Origin: a virus
Taxonomy: Duplodnaviria; Heunggongvirae; Uroviricota; Caudoviricetes
Length of the DNA: 64,000 bases
Virus record (IMG/VR): IMGVR_UViG_2541047715_000004
Reading direction: 5' to 3' (one strand)
The first letter of the stretch is position 1. The number at the start of each line of letters is the position of its first letter. The notes beneath the pieces are model-generated. The model was not told where the DNA came from and did no database searches. It saw only the letters and a list, made by a program, of their open reading frames with translations. The position numbers and the translations under genes were made by a program. Below, piece after piece: positions 5,335-58,453 of the stretch.

Positions 5335-5480
5335 TAACAGCCATTGATTCTCGCCTAAAAATTCTAAGGCAGCACCTACCATTTAACCTTTACACCACAG
5401 CCGTAGGCATTTAGGCTATATCACATATAAGAAAACAAGTTGTTTCAGACGATAATTATATACGCAAAGGGAACTCTCCA

Positions 5481-6149
5481 ATGACCAAGATCTTTGTGGT
5501 TGGCGGCACAAAGGGCGGGCCTGGCAAATCCACCGTTGCCCAGCAAATTGCCGTTTGCCTGAAAGTCAAAAAGAAGAAGAAGGTTTATATCACTGATATA
5601 GATATTCAGCGCACGACAACAAGCTGGTGTGAAGACCGTCGACAGAACGAAGACCTTGAGCTGATTCCTTTTGCATACGTTCAGGATGACATCATTAAGC
5701 ACCTAAAATCGCTTCAGGGTAGAGCTGAGTTTGTAGTGGTAGATGCTGGTGGCTTCGACTCCGAAATTCAGCGACAAGCGATGCTGATGGCTGACGTTAT
5801 CATTATCCCGCTGCGTCCTAAGCGTCGTGATTTGAAATCTTTACGTGACATCGATCCTATTATCGACAATGTTCGCAATGTAAACGATAAAGTGAAGGTC
5901 CGCGCGGTCATGAACCAGTGCCCGGCTTTGCCATCACAAGTGTCTCGCATTCTGGCGGCTAAAGAGATTGTTGAGACGTTTGGCATCGAGTCTGCGCCAG
6001 TCAATCTATATAACCGCAACGTCTATGATGATGCGGAAGAGTCTGGTCGTTCTATCTTTGAAATGACCGGTAGCGAGCGCGACAAAAAGGCGGAAGCCGA
6101 GTTTGAAGAATTTGTAGATTATCTGTTGAGTCTGGAGGAAGAAGAATAA
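5481..6149 (+). CDS. parA: ParA-family partition ATPase
   Basis: Deviant Walker A GGTKGGPGKST near N-terminus; 222 aa; followed by small RHH-like partner. Confidence 0.85.
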   Translation: MTKIFVVGGTKGGPGKSTVAQQIAVCLKVKKKKKVYITDIDIQRTTTSWCEDRRQNEDLELIPFAYVQDDIIKHLKSLQGRAEFVVVDAGGFDSEIQRQAMLMADVIIIPLRPKRRDLKSLRDIDPIIDNVRNVNDKVKVRAVMNQCPALPSQVSRILAAKEIVETFGIESAPVNLYNRNVYDDAEESGRSIFEMTGSERDKKAEAEFEEFVDYLLSLEEEE

Positions 6150-6508
6150 TGTCCATGAAAATGGGTGACCTAGCAAAGCGCAAAGAGCCTGATGCACCGG
6201 CTAAGAACACAACTCCTTTGCGCCAACCAGTCAGACCACAGGGACGCCCGACTCGTGGCAAAGAGAAAATTAAAAGCCGCACAATGTCACTGGAGGACGA
6301 ATACTTCGAACTGCTGGAGATGATGAAGTTCATCCCTCGCTTCGAGAAGTTCACTCGTTCTGACGTGATTCGAGCAGCCATTTTCCATCTGGCAGAGAAG
6401 TCACCGCAGGAAATCGAGGACATCGTGAAATTGAATGAGGCGATCACCGCTGCCGATGTCACGATGCGTACCGATGAAATTAAACGCGAGTTAATGAAGA
6501 AAGGTTGA
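6149..6508 (+). CDS. small partition DNA-binding protein (ParG/RHH-like)
   Basis: 119 aa; basic N-terminus then RHH-like segment; start overlaps parA stop. Confidence 0.5.
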   Translation: MSMKMGDLAKRKEPDAPAKNTTPLRQPVRPQGRPTRGKEKIKSRTMSLEDEYFELLEMMKFIPRFEKFTRSDVIRAAIFHLAEKSPQEIEDIVKLNEAITAADVTMRTDEIKRELMKKG

Positions 6509-8657: not shown

Positions 8658-8700
8658 CTAATACTAGAAAACAATTTGTTTAAAAAACAAAGGAAAGCAC

Positions 8701-15602: not shown

Positions 15603-15677
15603 GATGGTGTAGCTCAGCGGTAGAGCAGTTGGCTGTTAACCAACTGGTCGGTGGTTCGAATCCACCCACCATCGCCA
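15603..15677 (+). tRNA. tRNA-Asn (GTT)
   Basis: Cloverleaf by eye: acceptor GATGGTG/CACCATC, D stem GCTC/GAGC, anticodon loop CTGTTAA, T loop TTCGAAT, CCA end. Confidence 0.8.
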
Positions 15678-15682
15678 ATTTA

Positions 15683-15769
15683 GGGGAGTTAGTCCGTAGA
15701 GGTAGCGGTGTAGACTGTAAATCTACTGTCATTGCGACTCGGGTGGTTCGACTCCATCACTCCCCACCA
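15683..15769 (+). tRNA. tRNA-Tyr (GTA), long variable arm
   Basis: Acceptor GGGGAGT/ACTCCCC, anticodon stem GTAGA/TCTAC with loop CTGTAAA, T loop TTCGACT, CCA end; D arm atypical. Confidence 0.65.
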
Positions 15770-15773
15770 AATT

Positions 15774-15849
15774 GCCGGTTTAGCTCAGTTGGTAGAGCGC
15801 CTGCCTTGTAAGCAGGATGTCAGCGGTTCGAGTCCGTTAACCGGCACCA
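15774..15849 (+). tRNA. tRNA-Thr (TGT)
   Basis: Acceptor GCCGGTT/AACCGGC, D stem GCTC/GAGC, anticodon stem CCTGC/GCAGG with loop CTTGTAA, T loop TTCGAGT, CCA end. Confidence 0.8.
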
Positions 15850-16457: not shown

Positions 16458-17012
16458 ATGAATAAGCGCAACCTCAATATTCTTGCCTCTCTGGTAATCA
16501 TGCTCGCTCTGACGGGATGTAACGAATCGGAGATCGACAAAATTACCTTAATAGGTAGAGATAAAAGCGATCTTGCACAGAACTATAAAGCCCAGTTCCA
16601 AGAGCAAACACCCAGTATTGAGGTATTCGCTCTTCAAGATAAAAATGCACCGAATGAACAGGAACCACATACGCATGGAAATCTCATTGATGGAAAGGTT
16701 GAATCGTCTTTAACGACAAATGTCGGTAAGTATACGTTCATGCAGATCGGTGAAATGATGACAAGGGAGTACGGAAAACCGGTAGCAACGAAAGACAGAA
16801 TTTTCGACCAAGAAGCTATCTCAGGTATGGACTGTATTGAGACAAAGACCTGTGGTGCAGGCAAGTATTATGAAGTCTATCGAGGGAAGGATCGTTTAGT
16901 AATGGTGATTAACGGTGCAGGCTTTGTGAACGAAAAAGAGGGTGTAACATTGCTTTCTATCACCGATAAGATGATTAAAGTTTCACGCTTGAAAGAAGAC
17001 AAACGCAAATAG
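16458..17012 (+). CDS. lipoprotein of unknown function
   Basis: Start set at MNKRN; signal peptide with lipobox LTGC; about 184 aa. Confidence 0.55.
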   Translation: MNKRNLNILASLVIMLALTGCNESEIDKITLIGRDKSDLAQNYKAQFQEQTPSIEVFALQDKNAPNEQEPHTHGNLIDGKVESSLTTNVGKYTFMQIGEMMTREYGKPVATKDRIFDQEAISGMDCIETKTCGAGKYYEVYRGKDRLVMVINGAGFVNEKEGVTLLSITDKMIKVSRLKEDKRK

Positions 17013-32501: not shown

Positions 32502-34841
32502 ATGGCAAAAGGAAAATCCGCACTGGCACTTGCTCTGAAAAAGAAAATCGGTAGCAACGACGAAATTCAGAAAGTAACTCATTGGATTGACACAGGCTTT
32601 CCTCCGTTAAACAAAGCTATTTCCGGTCGTTACGATGGCGGTTTCCCATGTGGTCGTATCGTAGAAGTATTCGGGCCACCAAGCGCGGGGAAATGTGTTA
32701 CCGCAGACACCATGCTGCTGACGGAGCGTGGAATGGTAACAGTGAAAGAGTTGTTTGAGATTGAAGGGTACAAAGCGACATGCACTACTCGCGATGTAGA
32801 GCATAACGTTGGACTCATCAATGAAAATGGCGTGATAGAGAAGACCTCACACCTGACATGGAACAACCGTCGCAAATTCAAGCGTATTAAGCTGGCATCA
32901 GGCGGTTATATCGAGGCTACGTTCCGTCACCCAATCCGTGTGGTTGACGACTTAGGTAATGTCGTCTGGCGACATGCTGAAAAAATCAGTGTAGGCGACA
33001 CGATTCCTTCAATGGTTGGCACACATCAATTCGGCGATCAGCACCTGGATGCCAATATCGCAAAACTGATGGGCTATTTAATTGCTGACGGATACGTGGC
33101 CTCTGAAAATTCAGTGAATTTTTCTAACACAGATCCTTTCATCAAGGATGAGTACTACCGCCTCATTTCGCTGGTATCAGACAAGATGCCAGTTACGAGA
33201 AAACATAACGGCTCGGAAGACCATGTGCTGTTTAGCAAAGAGGTGCGTTCGCTGCTTTTTAAAGAATATGGTCTGGAGTATGAGAAAGCTGCTGGCAAGC
33301 AGGTTCCGTTGAGTGTGCGTCGCGCCAATAGCGAGGCTCAAATTGCATTCCTTCGCGGCTACTTTGAGCTGGAATGCCACGTCAATGATGGTCGCTGCAT
33401 TGAGGTTGTGAGCGCGAGTGGGCTGCTGCTACAGCAAATTCGCCTCATGCTCCTGAATCTGGGGATTACGTCAACTATCTCTGAAAAACACGTCGCGGGT
33501 TATGAAAATACATATTACCGGCTGTCATTCAGTGGCTCTAATTACGACCTTTTTCTGTCAACGATTGGTTTCGAATCTCCGGCACGTTTATCAGTGGCAA
33601 CCAAACGGGACATTGGTTTTGACCGCACTTACTCAGGCTATGTTCCGCACATCAGCGGCTTAGTGAAATCACTCTACGAGTCGCTCACCAAGACCACCCG
33701 TGAAGACTACGCTCTGGTAGACCACGTTATTGGCCGCGGCGATCGTGTCGGAATAGACAAACTGCGAGAAATCTATGTCTCCTTCATTGGCAGAAAGAAT
33801 CGTTTTAACGAGCATCTGTTTGCACAACTGGCAGCGGTAATTGGCTCTAACTTGTTCTACGACGAAGTCGTGGCTATTGAGGAAGGTGAAGCACCAACGT
33901 TCGACGTAGCGATGCCGGAAACACACTCTTTCTGGTCTAACGGGATTATCAGCCACAACACATTCCTTGCAACAGCAGCGATGATCTCCGCTCAAAAACA
34001 AGATGGTCTGGCGGTATTCCTCGATCATGAAAACAGTTTTGACGTTGGCCTGGCTGTAGCCAATGGCCTGAACGCAGATGAGGATGACGGTCAGTGGGTA
34101 TACAAGCAGCCAGATACCTTCGAAGACTCTGTAGAGTTGATCGGCACAATACTTAAATTGGTTCGTGATGAAGAGCTTATCCCCGAATCAGCACCTATCT
34201 GTATCGTGGCTGACTCTCTTGCGTCTATGGTTCCGAACTCCAAAGCCGAGAAGTTCGAAAAGATGGCTGAAGGCACAGCCAAAGACAAAGATCAGCTAAA
34301 CATGAACGACAATACGGCACTGGCTCGTGCGACGAGTGCGAACTTCCCTACTCTGGCTTTGTGGGCACGCAAATACAACGCCTGCATCATCTTCTTGAAT
34401 CAGGTTCGCACAAAAATCGGTGTAATGTTTGGCGACCCTACTACGTCGCCAGGTGGAGATTCACCGAAGTTCTACGCTTCTGTACGTATCCGTCTTGGTG
34501 CATCGGTGATGAAGGATGGTAAAGAGAAGATCGGCCAGGACGTAGGCGCAGAATGCATCAAAAACAAAGTTGCACCACCGTATGGCAAATGCACCTGGAA
34601 ATTCTACTTCGATCCTACTCGTGGCCTCGACGTTATCGAATCGCTCGTCGAGTACATGCTGGAAGAAGGATACCTGCCAAAGAACGCCAGCGGGCGAGTT
34701 GAAATTGGTGACAAGAAATACACCAAATCGCAGATCGTCGAGATGTATCGGGAGAAGCCACTGGCTGAAATCATTGCGGCTTTGCAGGCAATCGACGACC
34801 GAAGAGCAAAAGACAACCCCACCGAGCCAGTAGAAGAGTAA
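32502..34841 (+). CDS. RecA/UvsX-like recombinase containing an intein
   Basis: Exteins (64 + 293 aa) rejoin to GPPSAGK-TFLATAAM Walker A; RecA-like C-terminal region. Confidence 0.8.
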   Translation: MAKGKSALALALKKKIGSNDEIQKVTHWIDTGFPPLNKAISGRYDGGFPCGRIVEVFGPPSAGKCVTADTMLLTERGMVTVKELFEIEGYKATCTTRDVEHNVGLINENGVIEKTSHLTWNNRRKFKRIKLASGGYIEATFRHPIRVVDDLGNVVWRHAEKISVGDTIPSMVGTHQFGDQHLDANIAKLMGYLIADGYVASENSVNFSNTDPFIKDEYYRLISLVSDKMPVTRKHNGSEDHVLFSKEVRSLLFKEYGLEYEKAAGKQVPLSVRRANSEAQIAFLRGYFELECHVNDGRCIEVVSASGLLLQQIRLMLLNLGITSTISEKHVAGYENTYYRLSFSGSNYDLFLSTIGFESPARLSVATKRDIGFDRTYSGYVPHISGLVKSLYESLTKTTREDYALVDHVIGRGDRVGIDKLREIYVSFIGRKNRFNEHLFAQLAAVIGSNLFYDEVVAIEEGEAPTFDVAMPETHSFWSNGIISHNTFLATAAMISAQKQDGLAVFLDHENSFDVGLAVANGLNADEDDGQWVYKQPDTFEDSVELIGTILKLVRDEELIPESAPICIVADSLASMVPNSKAEKFEKMAEGTAKDKDQLNMNDNTALARATSANFPTLALWARKYNACIIFLNQVRTKIGVMFGDPTTSPGGDSPKFYASVRIRLGASVMKDGKEKIGQDVGAECIKNKVAPPYGKCTWKFYFDPTRGLDVIESLVEYMLEEGYLPKNASGRVEIGDKKYTKSQIVEMYREKPLAEIIAALQAIDDRRAKDNPTEPVEE
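32694..33959 (+). mobile_element. intein with LAGLIDADG homing-endonuclease domain
   Basis: Starts with Cys (CVTADTML), TFRH block B, LMGYLIADGYV and FLRGYFELECHV motifs, ends ...GIISHN followed by Thr. Confidence 0.75.
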
Positions 34842-35982: not shown

Positions 35983-36009
35983 CAGGCGTCCAGTTGGACG
36001 CCTTTTTTA
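35983..36009 (+). terminator. rho-independent terminator
   Basis: AGGCGTCC-AGTT-GGACGCCT hairpin followed by TTTTT. Confidence 0.75.
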
Positions 36010-36058
36010 TCGCAATTATCTTATTAAGAAAACAATTTGTTTAAAAGGATAAGAAAAC

Positions 36059-47405: not shown

Positions 47406-47511
47406 CATATGGTGGGGGATATCCCCACCTTCTCTTTGATTTGTAAGCCTTGTTTAAACACATAAGATAACAACTTGTTTAAACGCACCAAAAAAGAAAA
47501 AGGAAAAACAC

Positions 47512-57637: not shown

Positions 57638-57730
57638 CGGTTGTTAGTGCATATGCATTGACCGTCTTTGCGTAAGCAATTTATGTAACCAGAAAACAAT
57701 TTGTTTTGACAAATAGCAAAAGGAAAACAC

Positions 57731-58156: not shown

Positions 58157-58323
58157 TGCTTGAGAGATTCCGGCTTGTGACCGTCATTGCTCTTCTGGTG
58201 ATAGCGGTGTTGGTGGATTTTACGGGAAAGATGATGTCTGTCATTTCTGATGGCGTCCTCATTGGTCTGGCGATCTACTTCGCTTATCCGCTAGTCCGTA
58301 AAGCAACGTGTTAATGACAAGGG

Positions 58324-58352
58324 CCAAATGGCCCTTGTGTTTCGTTGACCGA
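58324..58352 (+). terminator. intrinsic terminator hairpin
   Basis: CAAGGGCC-AAAT-GGCCCTTG followed by TGTTTCGTT. Confidence 0.65.
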
Positions 58353-58453
58353 AATAGAGAGTTTGCACCTTTACGTTTAGCTTGCTCCCCTTTTATGCCA
58401 CATCACAATAAAGCCAATAAGAAAACAACTTGTTTAAGCATTAGGAAAAACAC

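What the first reader, a model, noticed from the sequence alone, without database searches (positions are those of the whole stretch)
8665..8685. Second conserved upstream motif GAAAACAA-N-TTGTTTAA immediately 5-prime of the ribosome-binding site of several genes
A palindromic AAACAA-N-TTGTTT element followed by a conserved aaaggaaaaacacATG start context occurs upstream of parA (about 5430), helicase (8665), ORF 36059 (about 36026), nrdB (about 47466), TerB-like gene (about 57690) and ORF 58454 (about 58418), with weaker copies before 20573, 22777 and 10123. The fixed position relative to the start codon suggests a shared operator for a transcriptional or translational regulator, defining a co-regulated gene set distinct from the ATAGGTAAGT class.
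Basis: seen in the sequence. Interest (0 to 1): 0.5.

Follow-up and report, generated by a model that had tools for sequence, protein, structure and literature searches.

The report
Dispersed repressor operator of a phage-plasmid
A 13-base palindrome (AAACAAnTTGTTT) sits at a fixed place in about twenty promoters of an SSU5-type phage-plasmid and is most likely the docking site of one repressor that switches replication, nucleotide-metabolism, partition and packaging genes together; this kind of element is ordinary, but I found no description of this regulon or its binding protein.

Summary
The motif is real. AAACAAnTTGTTT (≤1 mismatch) occurs 7 times in the window against 0.5 expected, always between genes and just upstream of a + strand gene. 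The window is an SSU5/pHCM2/Cyrano-type phage-plasmid. A complete close relative has 17 copies. A Klebsiella relative with 69% helicase identity has 21 copies with the identical core, at orthologous positions, while the flanks have diverged.

What is fixed is the distance to sigma-70 -10 elements. The centre lies either about +14 (all window sites) or exactly -38 from the predicted start. Some promoters carry both, 51 bp apart.

The RNA hairpin is negligible (-0.7 kcal/mol), no compensatory changes are seen, and no Rfam family matches.

Best reading: a DNA operator for a dimeric repressor encoded by the element, defining a second regulon beside the GGTAAGnnCTTACC class. The binding protein is not identified. 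Candidates are the 119-aa ParA partner (window 6149-6508) and an FljA-family tandem-Hfq protein encoded outside the window. For the latter, an RNA-level alternative stays open.

It is a new member of a known kind and moderately interesting.

The parts
5430..5445 (+). Operator copy AGA-AAACAAGTTGTTT upstream of parA-like ATPase (ATG 5481); D-class (downstream of predicted -10)
   Evidence: Orthologous copies in Kluyvera, Buttiauxella, two MAG contigs and Klebsiella. parA operon is expressed in Cyrano lysogens.
8666..8681 (+). Operator copy AGA-AAACAATTTGTTT upstream of DnaB-like helicase (ATG 8701); the copy named in the finding
   Evidence: It is an invariant island with a variable centre base in 39 distinct orthologous upstream sequences. 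Transcript level steps up from CYRAN_31 to CYRAN_32.
20538..20553 (+). Operator copy AGT-AAATAATTTGTTT (1 mismatch) upstream of CobT-like gene (ATG 20573); TG-n-TACATT extended -10 24 nt upstream of the centre
   Evidence: The orthologous pMT1 copy is perfect.
36027..36042 (+). Operator copy AGA-AAACAATTTGTTT upstream of DUF7238 ORF (ATG 36059), 24 nt after an intrinsic terminator (35984-36003)
47465..47480 (+). Operator copy AGA-TAACAACTTGTTT (1 mismatch) upstream of nrdB (ATG 47512), after the nrdA terminator-like hairpin
   Evidence: Transcript level steps up from CYRAN_69 to CYRAN_70.
57691..57706 (+). Operator copy AGA-AAACAATTTGTTT upstream of TerB-like gene (ATG 57731)
   Evidence: Orthologous copy in the Klebsiella relative.
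58420..58435 (+). Operator copy AGA-AAACAACTTGTTT upstream of ORF 58454, downstream of terminator 58317-58338; CACAAT -10-like hexamer at 58404-58409
22757..22765 (+). Left half-site only (AGAAAACAA) fused to the Shine-Dalgarno sequence of gene 22777; not a full operator
6149..6508 (+). Candidate regulator: 119-aa protein translationally coupled to parA (5481-6149). It has a conserved N-terminal MGDLAKR tail and an invariant KIKSRTMS...FTRSDVIRAAI core. Its fold is unverified.
   Evidence: alignment; no fold or profile support; CYRAN_29 expressed in lysogens; 797 plasmid records

Best explanation
The palindrome is a double-stranded DNA operator. A dimeric DNA-binding protein encoded by the phage-plasmid binds AAACAAnTTGTTT where it overlaps host sigma-70 promoters and blocks RNA polymerase.

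In the window every copy is of the 'downstream' type. A -10-like hexamer ends 13 nt before the core, so the operator centre falls near +14 of the transcript start, between the promoter and the Shine-Dalgarno sequence. Elsewhere in the element the same palindrome lies in inverted orientation, centred exactly at -38 in front of strong extended -10 promoters (TGnGATAAT). A few promoters carry both sites 51 bp apart, about five helical turns, which would allow cooperative binding or looping.

Together about 17-21 promoters form one regulon: parA, helicase, CobT-like, nrdB, TerB-like, many small early genes and terS. These are held low in the plasmid (lysogenic) state and are distinct from the regulon of the XRE-type master repressor (GGTAAGnnCTTACC).

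Shown: the enrichment, the conservation and the promoter geometry.
Inferred: that a protein binds, that the effect is repression, and which protein it is.
For: (1) Enrichment. The window has 7 hits against 0.5 expected.

(2) Purifying selection on sequence. The core is invariant, the centre base varies freely and the flanks diverge in 39 distinct helicase-upstream sequences. The core is also kept in relatives with 70-80% helicase identity. A Klebsiella phage-plasmid has 21 copies and E. coli pHH12_P1 has 17.

(3) Quantised geometry relative to extended -10 elements. The hexamer starts exactly 26 nt after the centre in 9 of 9 cases (centre -38), or 24-26 nt before it in 6 cases (centre +13 to +15).
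- 9 of 11 U-class sites have a strong -10 at +25 to +27. Control offsets give mean 0.45 and maximum 2.
- 9 of 23 D-class sites have one at -26 to -24. Control offsets give mean 1.3 and maximum 5.
- The spacer sequences differ while the spacing is kept.

(4) Paired sites lie 51 bp apart (pHH12 93439/93490, Kpn 93404/93455). Tandem pairs lie 25 bp apart before terS.

(5) Several window copies follow terminator hairpins within 20-45 nt, so a new transcription unit must start there.

(6) In Cyrano lysogens, genes behind these promoters are near background even where the -10 is near consensus. Small step-ups occur at the helicase and nrdB sites.

(7) The RNA alternative is weak. The hairpin is -0.7 kcal/mol or absent, no better than shuffles. 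Variant sites break pairs without compensation. There is no Rfam match.
Against: - No transcription start site has been measured. All positions rest on predicted -10 hexamers. About half of the D-class sites, including nrdB 47468, have only weak or no -10 at the expected offset.
- The helicase -10 candidates shift between relatives.
- No DNA-binding protein could be assigned. The ParA partner gave no Pfam, PDB, Foldseek or hhalign support for a DNA-binding fold.
- The only annotated 'repressor' apart from the XRE protein is an Hfq-fold protein.
- Many U-class promoters are paralogous cassettes, which inflates the count of independent observations.
- A centre at -38 could also suit an activator.
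Confidence: 0.6

Rival explanations
1. It is an RNA-level operator. The motif acts in the 5' leader of the mRNAs and is bound by the phage-plasmid's FljA-family protein, a tandem Hfq-fold RNA binder. This protein would block translation or destabilise the message, as FljA does on the fliC leader.
For: - A full-length PF03614 (FljA) protein is encoded in the element. It occurs in 831 plasmid records, covering the enterobacterial SSU5-like phage-plasmids, and is absent from the Acinetobacter relatives, which lack the regulon.
- It is expressed in lysogens (log2 7-8 against a floor of 2.3).
- The predicted structure is two Hfq-like domains.
- From my own knowledge (Yamamoto and Kutsukake 2006; that paper is not held here), FljA is reported to bind fliC mRNA.
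- The Salmonella fliC leader, checked in the 43 metagenome loci, contains CAAGUUGU 19 nt before the AUG. This is the same geometry as the window sites.
- D-class sites and the AGAAAACAA half-sites fall in the predicted leaders.
Against: - U-class copies sit at a fixed -38 upstream of the -10 and are not in that promoter's transcript.
- The hairpin is thermodynamically negligible and shows no covariation.
- A matrix built from the phage sites does not rank the fliC leader highly: rank 21-41 with negative score. Only the central 8-mer is shared.
- The E. coli fliC leader lacks the 8-mer.
- The FljA-like proteins of the two clades are only 35% identical, yet the motif is identical.
Confidence: 0.2
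2. It is a positive promoter element. The palindrome would be the site of a phage-encoded activator, or would replace the -35 element, switching on middle or late promoters during lytic growth (Mu Mor/C- or P1 Lpa-like).
For: U-class sites are centred at -38 in promoters without a recognisable -35. The right arm TTGTTT resembles TTGACA. The regulon includes terS and lytic replication genes that are silent in lysogens.
Against: - All window sites and most others lie downstream of the -10, near +14, where activators do not normally act.
- The distance to the ATG (16-35 nt) leaves no room for a promoter downstream of the site.
- U-class promoters already have near-consensus extended -10 elements that should not need activation.
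- TTGTTT is 19 nt from the -10, which is too far for a normal -35.
Confidence: 0.1
3. It is a dispersed centromere-like site for the partition machinery with no direct role in gene expression, or a chance by-product of A/T-rich leaders.
For: One copy lies in front of parA. The 6-1-6 palindrome format resembles ParB/KorB sites. The leaders are A-rich.
Against: - The chance explanation is excluded by shuffles.
- The strict register with -10 elements and with gene starts is not expected for pure centromeres.
- The ParB-family gene is at background in lysogens and appears split in pHH12_P1.
Confidence: 0.05

Closest known systems
KorB/KorA global repressor network of IncP plasmid RK2 (operators OB TTTAGCGGCTAAA and OA GTTTAGCTAAAC; PMC11790492)
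   Same: A short perfect palindrome (13 bp, 6-1-6 like OB) is repeated at many promoters around a mobile element. It couples replication, maintenance and transfer or lytic functions into one repressed regulon. By my knowledge, some OB sites centre near -39/-40, close to the -38 class found here.
   Different: The sequence is unrelated. No ParB-CTPase has been shown to bind it, and the ParB-like gene here is silent in lysogens. Most sites here are at +14, not upstream or distal. The host element is a phage-plasmid, not a conjugative plasmid.
Phage P1 C1 repressor with more than a dozen operators scattered over the phage-plasmid genome (own knowledge: Lobocka et al. 2004)
   Same: Both are phage-plasmids in which lytic operons, including a DnaB-type helicase gene, each carry their own operator instead of being controlled by one early promoter cascade.
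   Different: P1 operators are asymmetric 17-mers (ATTGCTCTAATAAATTT). Here the site is a symmetric 13-mer, and it is a second regulon beside that of the XRE-type repressor.
Omega (pSM19035) and ParG (TP228): ribbon-helix-helix partition proteins that also repress promoters
   Same: A small protein encoded directly after a small Walker-type ParA is a candidate binder. Its own operon carries the site, and other promoters share it.
   Different: The fold of the 119-aa protein is unverified: hhalign to ParG gives probability 0.1% and Foldseek finds nothing. Omega and ParG sites are arrays of heptad or tetramer repeats, not single palindromes.
FljA-fliC post-transcriptional repression in Salmonella flagellar phase variation
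   Same: A homologous protein family is encoded in the element. The sites lie 16-35 nt upstream of the AUG, as in fliC, and share a CAAnUUGU core.
   Different: Only 8 nt are shared. The -38 sites cannot work through RNA. The family members are about 34-35% identical.
lac O1-type operators centred about +11
   Same: The operator lies just downstream of the start site, inside the polymerase footprint, and some promoters have an auxiliary site on the same helical face.
   Different: The protein family, sequence and biology are unrelated. This is an analogy of position only.

Membership tests
Repressor operator overlapping a sigma-70 promoter | Dyad-symmetric sequence conserved as sequence, not merely as pairing potential | tested here: met
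   Both arms are near-invariant in more than 38 copies from two clades. The centre base varies freely. Variant sites break symmetry without compensation.
Repressor operator overlapping a sigma-70 promoter | Fixed register with core promoter elements, inside the RNA polymerase footprint | tested here: met
   Centres fall at -38 (9/9 exact) or +13 to +15 relative to starts predicted from extended -10 elements. Control offsets are far lower. The start sites themselves are predicted, not measured.
Repressor operator overlapping a sigma-70 promoter | A cognate DNA-binding protein | tested here: inconclusive
   Candidates are listed, but none has a verified DNA-binding fold.
Repressor operator overlapping a sigma-70 promoter | Target promoters repressed when the regulator is present | not testable with these tools
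   Only indirect evidence is available: target genes are near background in Cyrano lysogens despite good -10 elements.
KorB/ParB-type OB site | Bound by a ParB-family HTH/CTPase protein that is also the partition protein | tested here: inconclusive
   ParB-N and ParB/RepB/Spo0J genes exist next to terS. CYRAN_119 is at background in lysogens, and the gene appears as two ORFs in pHH12_P1.
KorB/ParB-type OB site | Sequence related to OB or parS | tested here: not met
   AAACAAnTTGTTT compared with TTTAGCGGCTAAA; only the 6-1-6 format is shared.
FljA-type translational operator (RNA) | FljA-family protein encoded by the same element | tested here: met
   PF03614, E 1.5e-84; PHROG 1444; Hfq-like tandem fold.
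FljA-type translational operator (RNA) | All sites lie in transcribed 5' leaders | tested here: not met
   The U-class sites lie 26 nt upstream of the -10 hexamer.
FljA-type translational operator (RNA) | Resemblance to the experimentally defined target, the fliC 5' UTR | tested here: inconclusive
   CAAGUUGU is shared and the distance to the AUG is similar. The site matrix does not rank the leader highly, and E. coli fliC lacks the 8-mer.
Structured cis-regulatory RNA (Rfam-type) | Stable fold, covariation, or a match to a curated family | tested here: not met
   Folding energy is 0 to -0.7 kcal/mol for the palindrome, with z-scores near 0. There is no Rfam hit at any site.
ParG/omega RHH centromere-binding repressor system | Small protein after a type Ib parA, with a ribbon-helix-helix fold | tested here: inconclusive
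   The gene position fits, and so do the N-terminal tail and the conserved core. The model has low confidence (pLDDT 64). There is no Pfam, PDB, Foldseek or hhalign support.
Phage-specific promoter (own RNA polymerase or sigma factor) | A phage RNA polymerase or sigma gene, and an asymmetric promoter consensus | tested here: not met
   No such gene appears in the annotations of pHH12_P1, Cyrano or the Klebsiella relative. The core is symmetric and is accompanied by sigma-70 -10 elements.

The most novel reading that the evidence does not exclude
The palindrome, or its transcribed copy, is the target of the FljA-family tandem-Hfq protein that all enterobacterial SSU5-like phage-plasmids carry and express in lysogens. 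The protein would silence about 20 lytic and maintenance genes, possibly acting on both DNA and the 5' leaders. The Salmonella phase-variation repressor FljA, whose fliC target contains the same CAAGUUGU core, would then be a domesticated relative of a phage-plasmid lysogeny regulator.

A sibling version names the ParA partner as the binder. That would make this a KorB/omega-like combined partition and silencing system in a phage.
Probability: 0.15. Interest if true: 0.8.

Novelty: new member of a known kind. Interest (0 to 1): 0.45.

Why it matters
SSU5/pHCM2/pMT1-type phage-plasmids are very common in clinical E. coli, Klebsiella, Enterobacter, Salmonella and Yersinia pestis: about 800-900 plasmid records in one database. 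They carry resistance and virulence genes.

Their lysis-lysogeny and copy-control circuitry is essentially uncharted. My literature searches found no description of these operators.

The two dispersed operator classes give a concrete wiring diagram showing which promoters belong to which regulon. They also give a simple handle (a 13-bp site) for finding the second repressor, and a way to predict induction behaviour and to build reporters.

Tried and rejected
- RNA hairpin. Six leaders were folded. The palindrome contributes 0 to -0.7 kcal/mol and z-scores are near 0. Rejected as a structural RNA.
- Rfam scan of the whole window. Nothing was found at the sites; the only hits were a cspA element and 3 tRNAs.
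- Generic promoter scanner on two site regions. No + strand hit at its strict threshold. Geometry emerged only after aligning all copies.
- FljA link.
  - The primary papers are not held.
  - The fliC leader was recovered from metagenomes.
  - The position matrix did not rank it highly.
  - E. coli fliC lacks the 8-mer.
  - Kept only as a rival.
- Covariation test of regulator against motif. The motif is identical in a clade whose FljA-like protein is 35% identical and whose ParA partner is 51% identical. This does not discriminate.
- ParA partner as an RHH protein. The Pfam member scan, the PDB profile search, the AF2 model plus Foldseek and hhalign against ParG (sequence verified as 1P94) were all negative.
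- Acinetobacter relative. It has a different ParA partner and different local repeats, and no regulon.
- Y. pestis pMT1. It lacks the ParA partner and keeps 6 sites, but the plasmid is too young to be informative.
- Resemblance of the parA upstream region to the SP6 promoter, and host transcription-factor consensus sequences recalled from memory. No convincing match and no phage polymerase gene, so dropped.
- IMG/VR helicase loci were almost all at least 92% identical. They were useful only for footprinting.

Full report
WHAT THE WINDOW IS. The 6-kb stretch around the finding is 100% identical to about 110-kb non-mobilizable plasmids of E. coli, E. fergusonii and Shigella. It is 97-98% identical to Escherichia phage Cyrano and 80% to Salmonella phage SSU5. 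The window is therefore part of an SSU5/pHCM2-type phage-plasmid. Window position 1 corresponds to about 24138 of CP058914.1 (pHH12_P1), with a roughly 1.8-kb indel after about 28 kb. Nearly all genes are on the + strand. They include tail fibre and lysis genes, a parA-like ATPase, DnaB-like helicase, primase, ligase, three tRNAs, integrase, an XRE-type repressor on the - strand, CobT/CobS-like genes, DnaE, recombination genes, RepA, SbcCD, NrdAB, ThyX, DHFR, Dam, RNase H, a TerB-like gene and a type I restriction enzyme.

THE OBSERVATION.
- AAACAANTTGTTT with at most one mismatch occurs 7 times, against 0.50 expected. None of 100 dinucleotide-preserving shuffles reaches 7.
- The copies are at 5433, 8669, 20541, 36030, 47468, 57694 and 58423. 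Each lies in a gap between annotated genes, immediately upstream of a + strand gene.
- Aligning them shows a longer, asymmetric unit, (t)AAGAAAACAAnTTGTTT(aa). AGAAAACAA alone is also enriched, 10 against 1.27.
- The gap between the core and the ATG is 16-35 nt, so the position relative to the start codon is not fixed.
- The 'weaker copies' before 22777 and 10123 are a left half-site fused to the Shine-Dalgarno sequence and a degenerate copy.
- The 'aaaggaaaaacacATG' context is the genome's general ribosome-binding context: 22 occurrences, of which 6 follow the motif.

BEYOND THE WINDOW.
- The complete relative pHH12_P1 holds 17 copies with at most one mismatch. The additional ones cluster in a block of small genes at 93-99 kb, and a tandem pair lies in front of terS.
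- At orthologous positions (parA, helicase) the core is kept in Kluyvera, Buttiauxella and two metagenome-assembled contigs with only 70-80% helicase identity, while the flanks differ.
- In 39 distinct helicase-upstream sequences, AGAAAACAAnTTGTTT is an invariant island. Its centre base takes all four values.
- A Klebsiella pneumoniae phage-plasmid of a separate clade (helicase about 69% identical) carries 21 copies of the identical core. K. oxytoca pCAV1015-111 has it as well.
- An Acinetobacter relative with conserved gene order but 37% helicase identity has no such regulon.

DNA OR RNA.
- As RNA, the palindrome could only form a 5-bp A-U-rich stem with a 3-nt loop. Predicted energies are 0 to -0.7 kcal/mol, no better than shuffled sequences.
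- Variant copies (AAATAA......ATGTTT...TTGGTT...TTGTTA) break pairs without compensation.
- No Rfam family matches.

PROMOTER GEOMETRY. I aligned all copies of the two complete genomes on the palindrome centre and asked where sigma-70 extended -10 elements lie. These were defined as TGn plus a hexamer with A2, T6 and at least 4 of 6 matches. Two sharp classes appeared.
- In nine cases the hexamer starts exactly 26 nt after the centre. This puts the centre at -38 from a start placed 7 nt after the hexamer.
- In six cases it starts 24-26 nt before the centre, putting the centre at +13 to +15.
- Eight of 17 and 10 of 21 palindromes have such an element within 60 nt. About 2 are expected for random positions, with maxima of 8 and 9 in 1000 trials.
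- With a -10 weight matrix, 9 of 11 'U-class' sites score at +25 to +27, where control offsets give mean 0.45 and maximum 2. Nine of 23 'D-class' sites score at -26 to -24, where controls give mean 1.3 and maximum 5.
- The intervening sequences differ from promoter to promoter while the spacing is kept.
- The AGA flank always faces the -10 element: AGA-core in D-class, core-TCT in U-class.
- Two promoters carry both sites 51 bp apart, and two carry tandem sites 25 bp apart.
- At U-class promoters the +5 to +13 position still holds a left half-site, (A)GAAAACAA.
- All seven window copies are D-class. Most have an nnnAAT-type hexamer 13 nt (±1-3) before the core: TCTAAT, TACATT, AGCAAT and CACAAT, and in the same register CGCAAT at 36030. 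The copy at nrdB has none.
- Four window copies follow terminator-like hairpins within 20-45 nt, so a new transcript must begin about there.
- A site at a fixed -38 upstream of a -10 element cannot act through that promoter's RNA. This is the main reason I prefer a DNA operator.

EXPRESSION DATA. The supplementary table of PMC9928086 gives per-gene RNA-seq values for Cyrano in E. coli LF82 lysogens.
- Genes behind motif-bearing promoters are at or slightly above the floor, even where the -10 is TGcGATAAT-like.
- Modest step-ups occur from CYRAN_31 to 32 (helicase; log2 2.3-3.0 to 4.1-5.1 in most conditions) and from CYRAN_69 to 70 (nrdB).
- The parA operon is clearly expressed (log2 5.2-10.8).
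- This fits weakly leaking, repressed promoters at the sites. It does not prove repression.

WHO BINDS. This is unresolved. The divergent region between the XRE-type repressor (19624-20010, - strand) and the cro-like ORF carries a different palindrome, GGTAAGtgCTTACC. That class is itself enriched (9 against 1.26) and sits before the holin, glutaredoxin, nrdA and dam genes. It is presumably the master repressor's regulon, so the present motif needs a second protein. Two candidates stand out.

(1) The 119-aa protein encoded directly after parA (6149-6508).
- Its operon carries the operator, and it is expressed in lysogens (CYRAN_29, log2 6.3-10.8).
- It is present in 797 plasmid records.
- Its KIKSRTMS...FTRSDVIRAAI core is invariant between the two clades, although overall identity is about 50%.
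- By eye it looks like a ParG-type ribbon-helix-helix protein. Every test was negative or uninformative:
  - Pfam scan of the alignment members;
  - PDB profile search;
  - a low-confidence monomer model (pLDDT 64);
  - Foldseek;
  - hhalign against ParG, whose sequence I verified as PDB 1P94.

(2) A full-length FljA-family protein (PF03614, E 1.5e-84), encoded outside the window (CP058914 101514-102038, - strand; CYRAN_114).
- It occurs in 831 plasmid records, including Y. pestis pMT1.
- It is expressed in lysogens at log2 7-8.
- Its predicted structure (pLDDT 82.5) is two Hfq-like domains, with rmsd 1.1-1.2 Å to Hfq over about 57 residues.
- By my knowledge of the literature, FljA binds the fliC 5' UTR and blocks translation.
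- I recovered the Salmonella fliC leader from 43 metagenome loci. It contains CAAGUUGU 19 nt before the AUG. A matrix of the phage sites does not rank it highly, and E. coli fliC lacks the 8-mer.
- The FljA-like proteins of the two clades are 35% identical while the motif is unchanged.

I keep the FljA/RNA model as the main rival (0.2), mainly for the D-class sites, which also lie in the predicted leaders.

Other DNA-binding candidates were not pursued. These are an 88-aa protein before terS with a weak LexA-type wHTH hit, 78% conserved between clades, and ParB-family genes that are silent in lysogens.

COMPARISON WITH KNOWN SYSTEMS. Functionally this is what RK2 does with KorA and KorB (short palindromes OA and OB at many promoters; PMC11790492). 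It is also what phage P1 does with C1 (own knowledge): one repressor with many dispersed operators on a mobile element. The sequence, the two fixed positions (+14 and -38) and the co-existence with a second operator class are specific to this family. My literature searches found no description of them. I therefore file it as a new member of a known kind, with the regulator's identity as the open and potentially more interesting question.

LIMITS.
- All start sites are predicted.
- About half of the D-class sites have only weak -10 matches.
- Many U-class promoters are paralogous cassettes.
- No binding or expression experiment exists for these sites.

Noticed in passing
window 20042-20055, 17882, 45028, 54581, 56799, 2450: A second dispersed palindrome class, GGTAAGnnCTTACC, gives 9 hits with at most 2 mismatches against 1.26 expected. 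It lies in the repressor/cro-like divergent region and before the holin, glutaredoxin, nrdA and dam genes. It is probably the operator set of the XRE-type master repressor (19624-20010, - strand). nrdA carries this class while nrdB carries the AAACAAnTTGTTT class.
   Followed up: partly
outside the window: CP058914.1 101514-102038 (-) = L003:27380-27901 (-); Cyrano CYRAN_114: A core gene of SSU5-like phage-plasmids (831 plasmid records, including Y. pestis pMT1) encodes an FljA-family protein. Its predicted structure is a tandem Hfq/Sm fold, and it is expressed in lysogens. The Salmonella fliC leader contains CAAGUUGU, the core of the motif studied here.
   Followed up: partly
window 27978-28396 (-): A full-length match to the Rfam cspA thermoregulator (185.7 bits). 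This is a cspA-like cold-shock gene with its long 5' UTR, lying in a stretch that is absent from the close relative CP058914.1.
   Followed up: no
window 32502-34841 (+): The 779-aa RecA-like gene is interrupted by an intein with a LAGLIDADG homing endonuclease domain. The Klebsiella and pMT1 relatives have an intein-less recombinase of about 355 aa.
   Followed up: partly
outside the window: CP058914.1 107743-107823; also pMT1 82925-82950: The terS leader has two copies of the operator 25 bp apart, followed by a terminator-like hairpin (gagcgcatggacgcgctc + T-rich) before the ATG. This hints at antitermination-type control of the late operon.
   Followed up: no
window 15603-15846 (+): Three tRNA genes in a row. 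The Cyrano annotation calls them Asn, Thr and Ser.
   Followed up: no
window 16458-17012 (+): This is the homologue of CYRAN_43, by far the most highly expressed Cyrano gene in lysogens (a lipoprotein-like 184-aa protein). It is in the opposite orientation in Cyrano. The region between the tRNAs and the integrase is rearranged between relatives.
   Followed up: no
L092 12098-12119 (Acinetobacter pORAB01-1): The distant Acinetobacter relative has a different ParA partner and different repeats (TCTATATAGA, two copies) in front of its parA. A 1-mismatch copy lies 37 nt before its CobT-like gene. This may be an analogous but independent operator system.
   Followed up: partly
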